Source: a virus
Taxonomy: Duplodnaviria; Heunggongvirae; Uroviricota; Caudoviricetes
Strand: one strand, 5' to 3'
Virus record (IMG/VR): IMGVR_UViG_2645728048_000025
Length of the DNA: 15,946 nucleotides
The translations under genes were made by a program, and so were the position numbers. Within the stretch, counting starts at the first letter, position 1. The number at the start of each line of letters is the position of its first letter. The notes under the pieces were generated by a model. That model saw nothing but the letters and a program-made list of their open reading frames with translations. It was not told where the DNA came from and ran no database searches. This document shows positions 1,106 to 15,946 of the stretch, in pieces.

Positions 1106-1392
1106 GGCTTAATCTTCCCCTCCTTCAGCAGGATCGCCTGCGTCCTGATCACGCCTTCGAGGTGATAAAGTCTGGCGTCTTTGTTGTCGAGATTATGGGT
1201 GCGTCGGTCGATTTCATCGTGACACGCGCTACAAGCCCATGCGCCGATCAGGTCGTCAGGCTTCATTCCAGTTCCGCAAATTCCAGCCATCCGGTAATGT
1301 GCCAGAACTGTAGTTTCAGGATTGCCATTGCATACGCCGTAAATACGTACCTGGCATTCTCTGCCGCGCGCTTCTTTGCGTAGGTTAGCCAT
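1102..1392 (-). CDS. ybcO: YbcO-like small Cys-rich protein (DUF1364-type, putative nuclease)
   Basis: 96-aa ORF with several Cys/His (CQVRIYGVCNG ... CSACHDEIDRR); lies directly upstream of rusA with ATGA overlap, as ybcO does in DLP12-type prophages (recalled). Confidence 0.6.
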   Translation of the reverse strand: MANLRKEARGRECQVRIYGVCNGNPETTVLAHYRMAGICGTGMKPDDLIGAWACSACHDEIDRRTHNLDNKDARLYHLEGVIRTQAILLKEGKIKP

Positions 1393-2114
1393 TAAGCAGC
1401 CTCCCCTGTTACTTTCAGCATTCTGTTATCGAGCAGCTTTCTGGTCAGCCACTGTTGACCACGCCCGGTGATTTTTGTGGTGAACGATATCTGTATTCCG
1501 TGATTTGTGTTGACCGCTGTTTCTTTCACTGTGAAATAGCCGCGCTCCATATATTCCTGCATTGGCACATTGCGCCGGGAACCTGAAGCAATAAGGATTT
1601 TGTGATCGCGCATCCACGCAAACAGTTTGTTTGGACCAATTCCAACAACCTTTGCAAAGTTTCCAATCAAAATTCCGCTGGCCTCGCCAACGCGATCGGC
1701 AAACTCAACTTTAGGTGCGACAATTGCGAGCTGGTTTTCCAGTTGCATTTTCTGCTCAGCAAGATCGGCAGCAAGGCGCAACGCTTCCGGTAGCGTTTTG
1801 GGGATATTAACCGCAGCTTCTTCAAGATCTCGCCAGCGGTCAACAAGGCGAGCGGTGAACTCTGGCGACAACTGGGCAACAACGACAATACTGTCTCGCT
1901 TACCTTGTTCGCCCTCGAAGACGTAATGCTCGTACTGAACATTGAACCCTAAGTTATTGATTCTTTCGGAAACCTCAATTTGAGGAAGCCGGATAACACC
2001 ATTTTTAGCCAGCGTTTCTATGGTACGTTTCACATTGTCATGGCGCTTACCCACCAACTCAGCGATTTCAATGCTTGTCATTTTGATGGCATTGCCATTT
2101 ATTAACTCATTCAT
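1392..2114 (-). CDS. Phage regulatory protein, Rha-family N-terminal domain with KilAC-type antirepressor C-terminal domain
   Basis: 240-aa ORF; N-terminus MTSIEIAELVGKRHDNVKRTIETL resembles Rha-family regulators; C-terminal half (GNFAKVVGIGPNKLFAWMRDHKILIA...) resembles KilAC antirepressor domains. Start overlaps the NinF-like stop. Confidence 0.75.
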   Translation of the reverse strand: MNELINGNAIKMTSIEIAELVGKRHDNVKRTIETLAKNGVIRLPQIEVSERINNLGFNVQYEHYVFEGEQGKRDSIVVVAQLSPEFTARLVDRWRDLEEAAVNIPKTLPEALRLAADLAEQKMQLENQLAIVAPKVEFADRVGEASGILIGNFAKVVGIGPNKLFAWMRDHKILIASGSRRNVPMQEYMERGYFTVKETAVNTNHGIQISFTTKITGRGQQWLTRKLLDNRMLKVTGEAA

Positions 2115-3974: not shown

Positions 3975-4254
3975 TTAATCGAAATTCTTTTCTTTGATTC
4001 CTGCGGCCCTGATGGCTTTCATTACTGCAATTACCGTTTTGTCACGCCCATCCTCATAACCCATCGCATAAGCACCTTCTTCACCATCTTTCCAAAGGTC
4101 GTCATTCGATTCGGGCCAGTCGATATCCAGTTCAATAGCAGAGCGCGATGCCTGCCATATCACCCAGGCAAACTCTTTTAATTCATCGTCTCCCGTGAAC
4201 TGGCTTTTGTCTTTTGACCACCAGTTTTCAAACTGTCGGTAGCTATCGTTCACT
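3975..4254 (-). CDS. Hypothetical acidic, Trp-rich protein (about 92 aa, GTG start)
   Basis: Track ORF 3975..4268 starts at TTG inside the terminator T-tract; the GTG at 4254 preceded by GGGGGAGAGGGAA is a better start. No recognisable family; first gene after the tR2-like terminator. Confidence 0.45.
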
Positions 4255-7370: not shown

Positions 7371-7399
7371 AGAATACTACAGGTATTCAAAGCAATCAA
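7371..7399 (-). promoter_or_regulatory. PR promoter candidate: -35 TTGATT, 17-nt spacer, -10 TATTCT
   Basis: Minus-strand hexamers with 17-nt spacing, overlapped by operator sites 1 and 2; the same -10/operator arrangement recurs at PL. Confidence 0.5.
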
Positions 7400-7436
7400 T
7401 ACTCAGGGTATTTTTAGTTTAAGTACCTTAGCTATT
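7372..7436. promoter_or_regulatory. OR operator triplet, consensus AATAC-N5-GTATT
   Basis: Site 1 GAATACtacagGTATTC (7372-7388, perfect 17-bp dyad); site 2 AATACtcaggGTATT (7398-7412); weaker site 3 AGTACcttagCTATT (7422-7436). Centre spacing about 24-25 bp, between divergent cro and cI. Confidence 0.65.
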
Positions 7437-7447
7437 AGAATTAAGCT
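7413..7447 (+). promoter_or_regulatory. PRM candidate giving a leaderless cI transcript
   Basis: -10-like TAGAAT at 7436-7441 lies 6 nt upstream of the cI ATG with no Shine-Dalgarno; weak -35-like TTTAGT at 7413-7418 abuts operator site 2, as OR2 abuts the PRM -35 in lambda. Confidence 0.4.
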
Positions 7448-8164
7448 ATGGAAAATAAAAAATCACTGACGACAGAACAGCTCGAAGACGCTAAGCGGCT
7501 TAAGGCTTTGTATGAGTCAAAAAAGAAAGAATTGGGAATAACCCAATACTCAATCGCTGATGAACTGGGTATCACCCAAGGAGCGGTAGGGCATTATCTT
7601 AATGGCAGAAACGCGCTAAACGTTGAGGTTGCATCTGGTTTTGCACGATTGTTGCAAGTCTCAATTGCTGATTTTAGCCAGTCAATTGCTGCCAAGGTTG
7701 CAGAACAGGCAGAAAGCCTTAAGAGCGATGCCAACGTAAGGTATGCAGGGGAATACAGAGCAGGAAAGAGGTATCCGGTGTTAAGCAGTATCCAGGCTGG
7801 CTCGTGGTGTGAAGCATGCGAACCATACACCATTAAAGACATAGATGTTTGGCTTGAGTCTGACGCGCATATTCAAGGTAATGCGTTCTGGCTTAAAGTG
7901 GAAGGTGATTCAATGACGGCACCGGTTGGGTTAAGCATTCCAGAGGGAACATTCGTTCTTTTCGATACCGGAAGGGAGGCGATCAACGGCAGCTTGGTCA
8001 TAGCAAAACTTTCTGACTCTAACGAAGCAACATTCAAGAAGCTGATAATCGACGGCGGAAATAAATACCTCAAGGGACTTAATCCTGCATGGCCTCTCGT
8101 GCCAATCAATGGAAACTGCAAGATTATAGGCGTTGCAATTGAGACAAAACTAAGGCTGGTTTGA
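7448..8164 (+). CDS. cI: CI repressor (HTH N-terminal domain plus S24 LexA-like autopeptidase domain)
   Basis: HTH region (ITQYSIADELGITQGAVGHYLNG), putative Ala-Gly cleavage site in YPVLSSIQAGSW, catalytic Ser in EGDSM and Lys in FKKL; collinear with lambda CI. Confidence 0.9.
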   Translation: MENKKSLTTEQLEDAKRLKALYESKKKELGITQYSIADELGITQGAVGHYLNGRNALNVEVASGFARLLQVSIADFSQSIAAKVAEQAESLKSDANVRYAGEYRAGKRYPVLSSIQAGSWCEACEPYTIKDIDVWLESDAHIQGNAFWLKVEGDSMTAPVGLSIPEGTFVLFDTGREAINGSLVIAKLSDSNEATFKKLIIDGGNKYLKGLNPAWPLVPINGNCKIIGVAIETKLRLV

Positions 8165-8181
8165 TCACGCAAGGGGCGATT

Positions 8182-8550
8182 ATGGTTGGAACCGCTATAG
8201 CAAGCTTTTTGGGGATGTTGGCAATCTCAACAATTTACGGCTTAGCGCATGCTTTTATTGCGAAATCTCTATCAGAAAAAATAAGCCAGGCTTGGGCGCA
8301 TAGATCTGCTCGTTTCATGATTCTAGTGGTCATAGCAATACAAGGGATATCTGCATTTATCCTCTATGGATCAAGCTTATACCTGTTGTATCAAGGCGCG
8401 ACATTTACGCCTTACACCAGTGATTACGGAACTCTATACGATGGTAGTGAAGACATCTCTATGGCTTGGATCGTCTTTGGTTTATCTATGGCCGTGTCTG
8501 TTGTAGCAGACATCATTAAGGTAATTCTCGTCTTAACCTTCGCTGACTAA
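8182..8550 (+). CDS. Small integral membrane protein (about 122 aa) immediately downstream of cI; function unknown
   Basis: ATG at 8182 preceded by AAGGGG, 18 nt after the cI stop. Three long hydrophobic segments. Visibly more AT-rich than cI. Occupies the rexAB/sieB-type slot. Confidence 0.6.
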   Translation: MVGTAIASFLGMLAISTIYGLAHAFIAKSLSEKISQAWAHRSARFMILVVIAIQGISAFILYGSSLYLLYQGATFTPYTSDYGTLYDGSEDISMAWIVFGLSMAVSVVADIIKVILVLTFAD

Positions 8551-8636
8551 CCCATAATCCCGGCAGCAATAGCTATCGGGATCCACTTCACATATCCCGC
8601 ATAAAAAGCACTGAACAAGCAGACACCGAAAAAATA

Positions 8637-8723
8637 AATATCCTTTGTATTCATTCGCTTATCATTATTTCACCAAAAATAAATACCTTGTGTATTTACA
8701 CAATAAAATACCTACAGTATTCT
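8637..8723. promoter_or_regulatory. OL operators and PL promoter candidate
   Basis: Operator matches AAATACcttgtGTATTT (8681-8697, perfect dyad), AATACctacaGTATT (8707-8721), and a weaker AATATccttTGTATT (8637-8651). PL candidate -35 TTTACA (8695-8700), 17-nt spacer, -10 TATTCT (8718-8723), overlapped by operators exactly as at PR. Confidence 0.55.
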
Positions 8724-8769
8724 TTAGCCATCAGCAGAACGCTTGAAGCCAAACGGAACAGATTGGCAG

Positions 8770-8810
8770 GCTCTTTAACATTGATGGGATTGTCCCGCCG
8801 AAATGCGGGA
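8770..8810 (+). promoter_or_regulatory. nutL: boxA GCTCTTTAACA plus boxB hairpin
   Basis: boxA 8770-8780; boxB TCCCGC-cgaaat-GCGGGA 8793-8810; about 40 nt downstream of the PL candidate and upstream of N; identical to nutR. Confidence 0.7.
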
Positions 8811-8917: not shown

Positions 8918-9190
8918 ATGACAGTAGTCATTACATATCTGGCTGACGATAACGCCAGAAATCGCCGCAGAGCACGCAGACAGGCTCAACGTGAACAGGC
9001 AATGCAAGAGCAGCAACTGGCGCGAAAAATTGCGCTAAAGCTCTCTGGTTGCGTCAGAGCAGATAAAGCAGCATCACTCGGAAGCCTTCGCTGCAAGAAG
9101 GCAGATGAATGCAGTGGAAGTATTTGCCTGCCAAACGTAGCTCTTTACGCGGCAGGCTACCGTAACTCCAAACAACTGACAGCAAGATGA
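8918..9190 (+). CDS. N: N-like transcription antiterminator (arginine-rich motif)
   Basis: 90-aa ORF with N-terminal ARM (DDNARNRRRARRQAQREQAM); GGAGG 5 nt upstream of the ATG; first gene downstream of PL/nutL. Confidence 0.72.
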   Translation: MTVVITYLADDNARNRRRARRQAQREQAMQEQQLARKIALKLSGCVRADKAASLGSLRCKKADECSGSICLPNVALYAAGYRNSKQLTAR

Positions 9191-14698: not shown

Positions 14699-15946
14699 CT
14701 ATATTGCTGAAGGTACAGGCGTTTCCATAACTATTTGCTCGCGTTTTTTACTCAAGAAGAAAATGCCAAATAGCAACATCAGGCAGACAATACCCGAAAT
14801 TGCGAAGAAAACTGTCTGGTAGCCTGCGTGGTCAAAGAGTATCCCAGTCGGCGTTGAAAGCAGCACAATCCCAAGCGAACTGGCAATTTGAAAACCAATC
14901 AGAAAGATCGTCGACGACAGGCGCTTATCAAAGTTTGCCACGCTGTATTTGAAGACGGATATGACACAAAGTGGAACCTCAATGGCATGTAACAACTTCA
15001 CTAATGAAATAATCCAGGGGTTAACGAACAGCGCGCAGGAAAGGATACGCAACGCCATAATCACAACTCCGATAAGTAATGCATTTTTTGGCTCTACCCG
15101 ATTCACAAAGAAAGGAATAATCGCCATGCACAGCGCTTCGAGTACCACCTGGAATGAGTTGAGATAACCATACAGGCGCGTTCCTACATCGTGTGATTCG
15201 AATAAACCTGCATAAAAGACAGGAAAAAGTTGTTGATCAAAAATGTTATAGAAAGACCACGTCCCCACAATAAATATGACGAAAACCCAGAAGTTTCGAT
15301 CCTTGAAAACTGCGATAAAATCCTCTTTTTTTACCCCTCCCGCATCTGCCGCTACGCACTGGTGATCCTTATCTTTAAAACGCATGTTGATCATCATAAA
15401 TACAGCGCCAAATAGCGAGACCAACCAGAAGTTGATATGGGGACTGATACTAAAAAATATGCCGGCAAAGAACGCGCCAATAGCATAGCCAAAAGATCCC
15501 CAGGCGCGCGCTGTTCCATATTCGAAATGAAAATTTCGCGCCATTTTTTCGGTGAAGCTATCAAGCAAACCGCATCCCGCCAGATACCCCAAGCCAAAAA
15601 ATAGCGCCCCCAGAATTAGACCTACAGAAAAATTGCTTTGCAGTAACGGTTCATAAACGTAAATCATAAACGGTCCGGTCAAGACCAGGATGAAACTCAT
15701 ACACCAGATGAGCGGTTTCTTCAGACCGAGTTTATCCTGAACGATGCCGTAGAACATCATAAATAGAATGCTGGTAAACTGGTTGACCGAATAAAGTGTA
15801 CCTAATTCCGTCCCTGTCAACCCTAGATGTCCTTTCAGCCAAATAGCGTATAACGACCACCACAGCGACCAGGAAATAAAAAAGAGAAATGAGTAACTGG
15901 ATGCAAAACGATAGTACGCATTTCTGAATGGAATATTCAGTGCCAT
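14699..15946 (-). CDS. cscB: LacY-family (MFS) oligosaccharide:H+ symporter, sucrose permease CscB-like (415 aa, complete)
   Basis: N-terminus MALNIPFRNAYYRFASSYSFLFFISWSLWWSLYAIWL and overall layout match LacY-family permeases, and to my recollection E. coli CscB specifically. The start codon is at the last base of the window. Confidence 0.8.
   Translation of the reverse strand: MALNIPFRNAYYRFASSYSFLFFISWSLWWSLYAIWLKGHLGLTGTELGTLYSVNQFTSILFMMFYGIVQDKLGLKKPLIWCMSFILVLTGPFMIYVYEPLLQSNFSVGLILGALFFGLGYLAGCGLLDSFTEKMARNFHFEYGTARAWGSFGYAIGAFFAGIFFSISPHINFWLVSLFGAVFMMINMRFKDKDHQCVAADAGGVKKEDFIAVFKDRNFWVFVIFIVGTWSFYNIFDQQLFPVFYAGLFESHDVGTRLYGYLNSFQVVLEALCMAIIPFFVNRVEPKNALLIGVVIMALRILSCALFVNPWIISLVKLLHAIEVPLCVISVFKYSVANFDKRLSSTIFLIGFQIASSLGIVLLSTPTGILFDHAGYQTVFFAISGIVCLMLLFGIFFLSKKREQIVMETPVPSAI

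What the first reader, a model, noticed from the sequence alone, without database searches (positions are those of the whole stretch)
8182..8550. Lysogen-expressed small membrane protein directly downstream of cI (rexAB/sieB slot)
A 122-aa protein with three long hydrophobic segments starts 18 nt after the cI stop, on the same strand, ahead of OL/PL. It would therefore be co-transcribed with the repressor in the lysogen. In lambdoid phages this slot carries superinfection-exclusion or abortive-infection cargo (rexAB in lambda). The gene looks more AT-rich than cI by eye, consistent with a moron, and I do not recognise the sequence as RexB or SieB. It is the strongest single-gene candidate here for an uncharacterised prophage defence or exclusion function.
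Basis: partly seen in the sequence, partly recalled or inferred. Interest (0 to 1): 0.75.

Follow-up and report, generated by a model that had tools for sequence, protein, structure and literature searches.

The report
Orphan membrane gene behind prophage repressor
The ORF is real: it is hkaS of coliphage HK620, a conserved 122-residue inner-membrane protein that sits in the repressor operon of one lambdoid immunity module, and it is a reasonable but untested candidate for a prophage-encoded phage-exclusion factor.

Summary
Window 8182-8550 (+) encodes a 122-aa protein with three transmembrane helices. It starts 17 nt after the cI stop behind an AAGGGG Shine-Dalgarno, upstream of OL/pL and N.

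It is not unrecorded. The immunity region is 99% identical to phage HK620, where this ORF was deposited as hkaS, product "unknown". It also defines PHROG 6534, of unknown function.

It is a genuine gene:
- dN/dS is about 0.14-0.2.
- All 80 viral-contig alleles examined are intact.
- Homologues of 50-81% identity occur in seven enterobacterial genera.
- Every homologue whose surroundings I examined lies directly after an HK620-type cI C-terminal domain.
- In complete E. coli genomes, hkaS and this cI each occur in 146 of 5426 genomes.

The family is an orphan. It has no Pfam, PADLOC, NCBIfam or PDB relatives, no similarity to RexB or SieA, and no informative fold match. The AT-richness claim is weak (42.3% against 45.5% GC).

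Close cI relatives carry other cargo, or none, at this position, so the gene is dispensable cargo in a known mosaic hotspot.

My best guess, from context only, is a lysogen-expressed inner-membrane factor that blocks superinfecting phages, at about 0.3 confidence. The function has not been tested. Interest is moderate.

The parts
7372..7437 (.). OR1 (7372-7388), OR2 (7397-7413) and OR3 (7421-7437), operators of the HK620-type switch
   Evidence: Transferred from the HK620 record through the 99%-identical alignment. The sites share AATAC-N7-GTATT.
7413..7441 (+). Candidate PRM: -35 TTTAGT (7413-7418), 17-nt spacer, -10 TAGAAT (7436-7441). The -10 ends 6 nt before the A of the cI ATG, which implies a leaderless or near-leaderless cI mRNA
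   Evidence: Read directly from the sequence. No Shine-Dalgarno precedes the cI ATG. The assignment is by analogy with lambda PRM and is an inference; the HK620 record does not annotate it.
7448..8164 (+). cI repressor (HTH_3 plus Peptidase_S24), 238 aa
   Evidence: Pfam PF01381 and PF00717. 99.6% identical to HK620 cI.
8165..8181 (+). cI-hkaS spacer holding the Shine-Dalgarno AAGGGG (8171-8176). Its G-run varies among alleles, giving spacers of 17, 18 or 19 nt
8182..8550 (+). hkaS: a 122-aa protein with three TM helices and predicted N-out/C-in topology
8557..8582 (+). Stem-loop AAUCCCGG..CCGGGAUC just after the hkaS stop, with no U-tract. Conserved in E. coli and Hafnia and replaced by a different hairpin in Salmonella. 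Possibly a 3'-end stabiliser or processing site
   Evidence: Fold of 8545-8670: -18.5 kcal/mol, z = -2.1. Alignment. 80 alleles.
8632..8662 (+). tIMM as annotated in the HK620 record. It is only a weak all-A/U hairpin and overlaps an operator-like site at 8634-8650
8634..8722 (.). OL operators: candidate site 8634-8650 (AAATATCCTTTGTATTC), annotated OL3 8659-8675, OL2 8681-8697, OL1 8706-8722
   Evidence: Conserved across E. coli, Hafnia and Salmonella.
8695..8730 (+). pL early leftward promoter
   Evidence: HK620 record. Consensus scan finds TTTACA-17-TATTCT at 8695-8723.
8769..8810 (+). nutL
   Evidence: HK620 record.
8918..9190 (+). N antiterminator, marking the far side of the slot
   Evidence: PF25694 and phrog_271.

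Best explanation
hkaS encodes a small polytopic inner-membrane protein. I predict the N-terminus in the periplasm, a basic cytoplasmic loop at 28-44 with a short amphipathic helix, an acidic, tyrosine-rich periplasmic beta-hairpin loop at 71-92, and the C-terminus in the cytoplasm.

It is made in lysogens from the same PRM transcript as the cI repressor, and from PRE during establishment. It is accessory cargo of the HK620-type immunity module, kept by purifying selection but not needed for repression.

The mechanism I think most likely is superinfection exclusion at the inner membrane. The protein, alone or with a host membrane protein, would stop the genome of an incoming, probably heteroimmune, phage from crossing the cytoplasmic membrane. 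P22 SieA, T4 Imm and HK97 gp15 work this way.

Shown here: the gene is real, its position and anatomy, its conservation, and its lack of known relatives. Inferred: co-transcription, topology and the exclusion function.
For: **Operon anatomy.** The spacer is 17 nt with a good Shine-Dalgarno, no terminator lies before the gene, and OL/pL lie after it.

**Real and selected.**
- dN/dS is 0.14-0.2, with the same dS as cI.
- All 80 alleles are intact, with conservative substitutions.
- Length is conserved at 121-122 aa in seven genera.

**Membrane protein.** The hydropathy profile shows three TM segments. Loop 28-44 carries K28, K33, R41 and R44, and loop 71-92 carries D81, D87, E90 and D91. The structure model is confident.

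**Dispensable cargo.**
- Serratia phage OS31 has a 71%-identical cI and an empty slot.
- Other relatives with the same cI C-terminal domain carry unrelated ORFs.

**Precedent for the slot.** rexAB, bstA and hex are all phage-exclusion cargo co-transcribed with the repressor (PMC8585504, PMC3564112).

**Precedent for the protein type.** P22 SieA is a lysogen-expressed inner-membrane protein with three TM helices that blocks DNA delivery (PMC10883804).

**Features that fit an entry block.**
- HkaS has no soluble domain that could sense infection inside the cell, which fits an entry block better than a sensor-dependent abortive system.
- The periplasmic loop is nearly invariant among the 80 E. 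coli alleles. It holds eleven of the residues invariant across genera.
Against: - There is no functional evidence of any kind. PADLOC, Pfam and NCBIfam give nothing and the library holds no paper on the gene.
- There is no homology to SieA or RexB. Fold searches return only generic helix bundles.
- The module rides in phages with different virions: the podoviruses HK620 and Hf4s (and the Hf4s preprint), the Hendrixvirinae phage HK140, and Stx2c phages. Known entry blockers such as SieA target their own virion type.
- The cytoplasmic loop (K33, Q36, W38, H40, R44, F45), an intramembrane Q54/D110/K113 cluster and the C-terminal LTFAD are as invariant as the periplasmic loop. The site of action is therefore open.
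- Strict linkage to cI needs no functional explanation. The gene is trapped between cI and its OL operators.
Confidence: 0.3

Rival explanations
1. Single-protein abortive-infection effector. HkaS oligomerises into a channel or pore that is held closed in the lysogen and opens on infection, perhaps triggered by membrane perturbation or a phage protein. The infected cell is depolarised and killed, doing RexB's job without a RexA-type sensor.
For: - It occupies the slot that holds rexAB in lambda.
- It has class-I-holin-like anatomy: three TM helices, N-out/C-in, about 120 aa.
- The polar residues Q54, D110 and K113 are invariant and lie at similar depth in TM2 and TM3.
- Carriage by phages with different virions suits a target-agnostic mechanism.
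Against: - There is no similarity to RexB or to any holin or PADLOC model.
- It has no partner gene and no cytoplasmic sensing domain.
- It lacks the charged C-terminal tail typical of holins; the protein ends in LTFAD.
- Constitutive co-expression of a pore-former with cI would be risky.
Confidence: 0.15
2. Lysogenic-conversion factor unrelated to phages. The small membrane protein binds and modulates a host inner-membrane transporter, sensor kinase or protease, as small proteins such as MgrB or AcrZ do. That would change host fitness or stress tolerance.
For: - It is a compact three-helix membrane protein with conserved faces on both sides of the membrane and an invariant C-terminal motif. 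That pattern fits a partner-binding adaptor.
- It is present in prophages of commensal and pathogenic Enterobacterales from seven genera.
- Purifying selection operates in resident prophages.
Against: - No similarity to any known small regulatory membrane protein.
- Characterised cargo of this particular slot concerns phage exclusion or repressor stability (PMC8585504, PMC3564112).
- No candidate partner can be named.
Confidence: 0.2
3. Modulator of the lysis-lysogeny switch. Like 434 Hex, which stabilises lysogens by hindering RecA-stimulated repressor cleavage, HkaS would tune stability or induction of its own prophage. It might act on the cI C-terminal domain or on a membrane protease such as FtsH that controls CII.
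For: - HkaS travels with the cI C-terminal (S24) domain even when the DNA-binding domain is swapped, as in Buttiauxella.
- The closest characterised repressor relative, 434 cI (52% identity), has such a partner gene in the same place (PMC3564112).
- The conserved cytoplasmic loop and C-terminus could contact a cytoplasmic or membrane-anchored partner.
Against: - Adjacency alone explains the linkage to the 3' half of cI.
- Cytoplasmic exposure is only about 17 residues plus a short tail.
- Phages with a 71-89% identical cI or cI C-terminal domain do without it.
- There is no similarity to Hex, which looks like a secreted protein with a signal peptide.
Confidence: 0.1
4. Functionless hitchhiker: an ORF preserved only because it lies between cI and OL, which must stay together.
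For: Mosaic breakpoints always fall outside the cro-cI-hkaS-OL block. Constraint is four to five times weaker than on cI.
Against: - dN/dS is well below 1 at saturating dS.
- No indels in 121-122 aa across seven genera at 50% identity.
- 80 of 80 alleles are intact.
- Relatives show the slot can be emptied, so a useless gene would be lost.
Confidence: 0.05

Closest known systems
HK620 hkaS (AAK28867.1) / PHROG 6534
   Same: The same gene: 95.9% amino-acid identity, the same position, and 99% identical flanking DNA. The PHROG match is full-length at E = 2e-78.
   Different: Only allelic differences (L10F, G20V, V50I, S93T, M94V). Neither record assigns a function.
Lambda RexB (with RexA)
   Same: A polytopic inner-membrane protein encoded between cI and OL, co-transcribed with cI from PRM and expressed in lysogens (PMC8585504).
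   Different: RexB is 144 aa. From my own knowledge it has four TM segments, works with the RexA sensor and has its own internal promoter. HkaS has three TM helices and no partner gene, and shows no sequence similarity (hhalign probability 0.3%).
P22 SieA
   Same: A lysogen-expressed inner-membrane protein with three predicted TM helices and no signal peptide. One protein is sufficient for exclusion (PMC10883804).
   Different: SieA is 162-164 aa, is encoded in the late/immI region with its own promoter, and targets the ejection proteins of P22-like virions. There is no sequence similarity (hhalign probability 0.25%).
Phage 434 Hex
   Same: It occupies the same slot directly after the closest characterised repressor relative (52% identity). 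It is co-transcribed from PRM and reported both to exclude P22 and to stabilise the lysogen (PMC3564112).
   Different: Hex, as annotated in the lambda imm434 record, is a 134-aa protein with an N-terminal signal-like segment and a soluble body. It is unrelated in sequence and has no Pfam or PADLOC family.
BstA of prophage BTP1
   Same: [quoted passage not shown] It is highly expressed in lysogeny and the synteny is conserved (PMC8585504).
   Different: BstA mediates abortive infection at sites of phage DNA replication and has a DNA-encoded self-immunity element (aba). HkaS is a small membrane protein.

Membership tests
HkaS family (PHROG 6534) | Full-length sequence match to the family profile | tested here: met
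   phrog_6534 at E = 2.1e-78, covering residues 1-122 of 122. 95.9% identity to HK620 HkaS.
HkaS family (PHROG 6534) | Position directly downstream of an HK620-type cI (S24 C-terminal domain) and upstream of OL/N | tested here: met
   True of the window and of every homologue locus examined: E. coli, Salmonella, Hafnia, Buttiauxella and the viral contigs later matched to Cronobacter and Citrobacter proteins.
Lambda RexB | Sequence or profile homology to RexB | tested here: not met
   hhalign probability 0.29% over 13 columns. No PADLOC Rex model matched.
Lambda RexB | Adjacent rexA-like sensor gene | tested here: not met
   Only 17 nt separate cI from hkaS, and no further ORF lies before OL.
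Lambda RexB | Infection-triggered membrane depolarisation | not testable with these tools
   Needs infection assays with membrane-potential dyes.
P22 SieA | Sequence or profile homology to one of the SieA sequence types | tested here: not met
   hhalign probability 0.25% against P22 SieA. Only the P22 type was compared; no PHROG annotated as superinfection exclusion matched at E <= 0.01.
P22 SieA | Inner-membrane protein with three TM helices | tested here: met
   Hydropathy and the AlphaFold2 model. Localisation itself is a prediction.
P22 SieA | Blocks DNA delivery by superinfecting phage | not testable with these tools
   Needs K+ efflux or DNA-entry assays.
Class I holins | Three TM helices, N-out/C-in, followed by a charged cytoplasmic C-terminal tail, located in a lysis cassette | tested here: not met
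   The topology fits. However, the protein ends in LTFAD straight after TM3, lies in the repressor operon, and matches no holin family in Pfam or PHROGs.
Known anti-phage defence systems (PADLOC-DB 2.0) | Match to any defence-protein model | tested here: not met
   No families at E <= 10.

The most novel reading that the evidence does not exclude
HkaS founds a new family of one-protein membrane immunity factors. It would be either a sensor-less three-helix protein that gates the inner membrane against a broad range of incoming phage genomes whatever the virion type, or a membrane-stress input that is physically coupled to the repressor's cleavage domain and so links envelope state to prophage induction. 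Both would be mechanisms without a characterised homologue. The evidence excludes neither: the family is an orphan, it is conserved on both membrane faces, and it stays tied to the cI C-terminal domain even when the DNA-binding domain is exchanged.
Probability: 0.12. Interest if true: 0.7.

Novelty: new member of a known kind. Interest (0 to 1): 0.4.

Why it matters
About 2.7% of complete E. coli genomes (146 of 5426) carry this gene, including O145:H28 and O111:H8 strains. So do two Stx2c-converting phages and prophages of Salmonella, Cronobacter, Enterobacter, Citrobacter, Hafnia and Buttiauxella. In each case it sits in what is probably one of the most strongly transcribed prophage operons during lysogeny.

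If it excludes phages, it would add a compact single-gene defence with no known relatives to the catalogue. It would also matter for the host range of therapeutic phages against these strains.

The test is cheap. HK620, mEpX2 and HK140 are culturable phages with laboratory hosts.

The idea is not surprising, though. The cI-N interval is a textbook cargo hotspot, and small membrane exclusion proteins are a known kind.

Tried and rejected
**Family and homology searches**
- Pfam gave only sub-threshold noise (Cation_ATPase_C at 19 bits against a cutoff of 27).
- NCBIfam and PADLOC gave nothing.
- A profile search against PDB sequences gave nothing at E <= 1.
- An exhaustive HMMER profile search of 1.84 billion cluster representatives found one family representative, one fragment, and a probably compositional match to a 5949-aa YD-repeat-like protein.

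**Fold searches**
- BFVD Foldseek: no hit at E <= 0.001.
- afdb50 was unavailable.

**Direct comparisons**
- hhalign against P22 SieA and lambda RexB was negative.

**Literature**
- I searched for hkaS together with HK620, for accession numbers and the PHROG id, for the carrier phages, and for HK620 lysogen RNA-seq. No paper in the library mentions the gene.
- The 2001 HK620 genome paper is not held.
- The Hf4s lysogen data looked useful, because they show no post-adsorption exclusion of DT57C, G7C or phiKT. However, the Hf4s copy is frameshifted, so I set them aside.

**Readings considered and rejected**
- A cleavable signal peptide at A22-H23-A24. The motif is absent from the Salmonella, Enterobacter and Cronobacter homologues and there is no basic N-region.
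- A 35-aa hydrophobic antisense ORF at 8546-8653 as a partner gene. It is truncated in Hafnia and Salmonella and carries radical substitutions among E. coli alleles.
- An MqsR-like toxin as the alternative cargo in L176-179, which was my impression by eye. Pfam and PADLOC do not support it.

Full report
**1. What is there**

The window is the early region of a lambdoid prophage.
- On the minus strand lie an Ant-like gene, a DnaB-type helicase, an O-like initiator, cII and cro.
- On the plus strand lie cI (7448-8164), the ORF in question (8182-8550), N (8918-9190), a DUF7446 gene, erf, ssb and abc2.

The cI stop is TGA at 8162-8164. A 17-nt spacer follows, containing AAGGGG at 8171-8176. Then come the ATG at 8182, 122 codons, and TAA at 8548-8550.

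**2. Identity**

Segment 7340-8930 is 99% identical to phage HK620. There the ORF is deposited as hkaS, product "unknown" (AAK28867.1).

I transferred the features of that record with an offset of +5599. This places tIMM at 8632-8662, OL3, OL2 and OL1 between 8659 and 8722, pL at 8695-8730 and nutL at 8769-8810. The promoter scan independently picks out TTTACA-17-TATTCT at 8695-8723, and finds no terminator-like site on the plus strand between the cI start and the hkaS stop.

The protein matches PHROG 6534 (unknown function) end to end at E = 2e-78. So the ORF is not a new discovery. Its function is unknown everywhere: every source calls it hypothetical, and no paper in the searchable library mentions it.

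**3. Is it a real gene?**

ORF length alone proves little. By my estimate about one ORF of this length is expected by chance in 16 kb at this composition, and the window does contain many spurious ORFs. Comparative evidence decides the matter.

Distribution:
- Homologues of 121-122 aa and 50-81% identity occur in Salmonella, Hafnia, Buttiauxella, Enterobacter, Cronobacter and Citrobacter.
- The carrier phages have different virions: the podoviruses HK620 and Hf4s, the Hendrixvirinae phage HK140, and Stx2c-converting phages.

Selection:
- Between E. coli and Hafnia, dS of hkaS (0.71) equals dS of cI (0.73). The two genes have therefore been inherited together.
- Over the same comparison, dN/dS is 0.14 for hkaS and 0.03 for cI.
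- All 80 IMG/VR alleles are intact. They comprise 42 nucleotide and 27 protein variants, and the substitutions are conservative: L/F, V/I, I/M, S/T and M/V.
- Within E. coli, hkaS is more polymorphic than cI. Nucleotide diversity is 0.014 against 0.006. Polymorphic codons split 23 nonsynonymous to 17 synonymous-only in hkaS, against 6 to 34 in cI.

The gene is constrained, but four to five times less tightly than the repressor.

**4. Anatomy of the protein**

Hydropathy gives three TM segments at about 1-27, 45-70 and 93-120. AlphaFold2, using a 6-sequence alignment, gives mean pLDDT 91.5 and pTM 0.78. It predicts helices 2-29, 31-38, 41-74 and 89-121, with a short beta-hairpin at 78-87.

Loop 28-44 carries K28, K33, R41 and R44. 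Loop 71-92 carries D81, D87, E90 and D91, and the homologues keep this charge bias. By the positive-inside rule the topology is N-out/C-in. This is an inference.

Residues invariant across eight diverse members:
- a cytoplasmic motif: K33, Q36, W38, H40, A43, R44 and F45;
- Q54 in TM2;
- the end of TM2 and the periplasmic loop: Y67, L69, Y70, G72, T74, G83, Y86, G88, I92, A95 and W96;
- D110 and K113 in TM3;
- the C-terminal LTFAD.

TM1 is the most variable part. Both faces of the membrane are conserved, so the side on which the protein acts cannot be read from the sequence.

**5. No known relatives**

All of the following were negative or uninformative:
- Pfam, NCBIfam and PADLOC;
- PDB sequence profiles;
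- an exhaustive profile search of 1.84 billion representatives, which found only the family itself;
- direct profile comparison with P22 SieA and lambda RexB, at probability below 1%.

**6. Context and linkage**

In complete E. coli genomes, hkaS and the HK620-type cI each occur in 146 of 5426 genomes, at 147 places each. In the loci I examined, hkaS always lies 17-20 nt after a cI whose C-terminal S24 domain is of the HK620 type.

In Buttiauxella the cI has an unrelated HTH domain but the same C-terminal domain plus hkaS. A recombination joint therefore lies inside cI.

Mosaic breakpoints in 80 viral contigs fall to the left of cro/cII and to the right of nutL, never inside the block. This linkage needs no functional explanation, because the gene is trapped between cI and the OL operators that cI must bind.

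The gene is nevertheless dispensable for the switch:
- Serratia phage OS31 (cI 71% identical) has an empty slot.
- Enterobacter phage BHUENT3 has two other ORFs there.
- Four viral contigs with an 85%-identical C-terminal domain carry a 141-aa soluble orphan, and another (89%) carries nothing.
- 434 and Sf101 carry hex.

That cargo includes rexAB, bstA and hex (PMC8585504, citing Degnan 2007; PMC3564112).

**7. Expression (inferred)**

A -10-like TAGAAT at 7436-7441 ends 6 nt before the cI ATG. No Shine-Dalgarno precedes that ATG. A weak -35 (TTTAGT) abuts OR2. This is the lambda PRM arrangement, with a leaderless cI message.

hkaS has its own good Shine-Dalgarno. Its G-run varies in length among alleles, giving spacers of 17, 18 or 19 nt in 61, 12 and 6 loci.

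A conserved stem-loop follows the stop codon at 8557-8582, without a U-tract. The tIMM annotated in the HK620 record is only a weak A/U hairpin. No RNA data were available to me.

**8. Mechanism**

The evidence supports a lysogen-expressed, selectively maintained, dispensable inner-membrane accessory protein. For what it does, only context is available.

I rank superinfection exclusion at the inner membrane first, at about 0.3:
- The characterised single small polytopic prophage membrane proteins are mostly entry blockers.
- SieA has the same three-TM architecture (PMC10883804).
- HkaS has no domain that could sense infection in the cytoplasm.
- The periplasmic loop is the least variable part among the E. 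coli alleles.

The rivals are:
- a sensor-less RexB- or holin-like abortive pore (0.15);
- a host-physiology conversion factor (0.2);
- a Hex-like modulator of prophage stability (0.1);
- a functionless hitchhiker (0.05).

The remaining probability is for something I have not thought of.

The main argument against a SieA-like mechanism is that the module is shared by phages with different virions and entry routes.

**9. Verdict**

Slot, co-transcription logic and lack of recognisable homology hold. The AT-rich moron signature is weak (42.3% against 45.5% GC). Novelty of the ORF is overstated, and the defence function is untested.
- It is a sensible, cheap experimental target rather than a surprise: a new (uncharacterised) member of a known kind.

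Noticed in passing
window 8634-8650 (compare 8659-8675): AAATATCCTTTGTATTC fits the operator consensus shared by OL1, OL2 and OR1-3 (AATAC-N7-GTATT) much better than the OL3 position carried over from the HK620 record (TTATCATTATTTCACCA). It is conserved in Hafnia and Salmonella and overlaps the record's 'tIMM'. The third OL operator may be mis-annotated.
   Followed up: partly
window 8546-8653 (-): A 35-aa hydrophobic ORF (MNTKDIYFFGVCLFSAFYAGYVKWIPIAIAAGIMG) runs convergent with hkaS and overlaps its stop. It is annotated only in phage HF4s. It is truncated to 10-12 aa in Salmonella and Hafnia and shows A->D and W->L changes among E. coli alleles, so it is probably not a gene.
   Followed up: yes
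window 8171-8181 and loci L019-L098: The G-run of the hkaS Shine-Dalgarno is polymorphic (GGGG, GGGGG or GGGGGG). This changes the cI-hkaS spacer to 17, 18 or 19 nt in 61, 12 and 6 loci, and it could tune translation.
   Followed up: partly
L018 3333-4369 (Buttiauxella): This cI has an unrelated N-terminal HTH domain but an HK620-type S24 domain followed by an hkaS homologue (54% identity). It points to a recombination joint inside the repressor gene that keeps the C-terminal domain and hkaS together.
   Followed up: partly
L176-L179 (about 122 nt after the cI stop); L014 2470-3186; L011 2512-3046: Close relatives of this cI carry other cargo in the same slot. These are a 141-aa soluble orphan (no Pfam or PADLOC family), a Zn-ribbon-like 127-aa ORF plus an XhlA-like 109-aa ORF with a C-terminal TM segment, or nothing.
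   Followed up: partly
L017 401-768 (phage HF4s): The hkaS copy of Hf4s is frameshifted, and only the C-terminal 77 codons are annotated. The published phage-sensitivity data for Hf4s lysogens therefore say nothing about HkaS.
   Followed up: yes
HkaS residues 71-96; protein P0014 residues about 4028-4055: The periplasmic loop matches nine repeats of a 5949-aa Thr/Tyr/Gly-rich YD-repeat-like protein (E = 2.8e-7). This is probably shared beta-hairpin composition rather than homology.
   Followed up: partly
window 14699-15946 (-): A complete LacY-family oligosaccharide/H+ symporter gene (PF01306, E = 1.6e-192). Matching E. coli genomes annotate torI-like excisionase, Eag and DUF551 genes in the same stretch, so the gene lies at or beyond the prophage end. 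No integrase is visible in the window. It is either prophage cargo or the host flank.
   Followed up: partly
window 7448-8550 compared with L001 and 80 viral contigs: Within E. coli, cI is almost invariant (at least 99% identity in 144 of 146 genomes) while hkaS and the OL spacer differ by 2-3%. Between the window and HK620, synonymous divergence is 0.048 in hkaS against 0.006 in cI. This suggests a recent sweep or recombination boundary at the cI/hkaS junction.
   Followed up: partly
window 1392-2114 (-): An Ant-like antirepressor gene (phrog_63, E = 8e-98) lies in the nin region of the same prophage.
   Followed up: no
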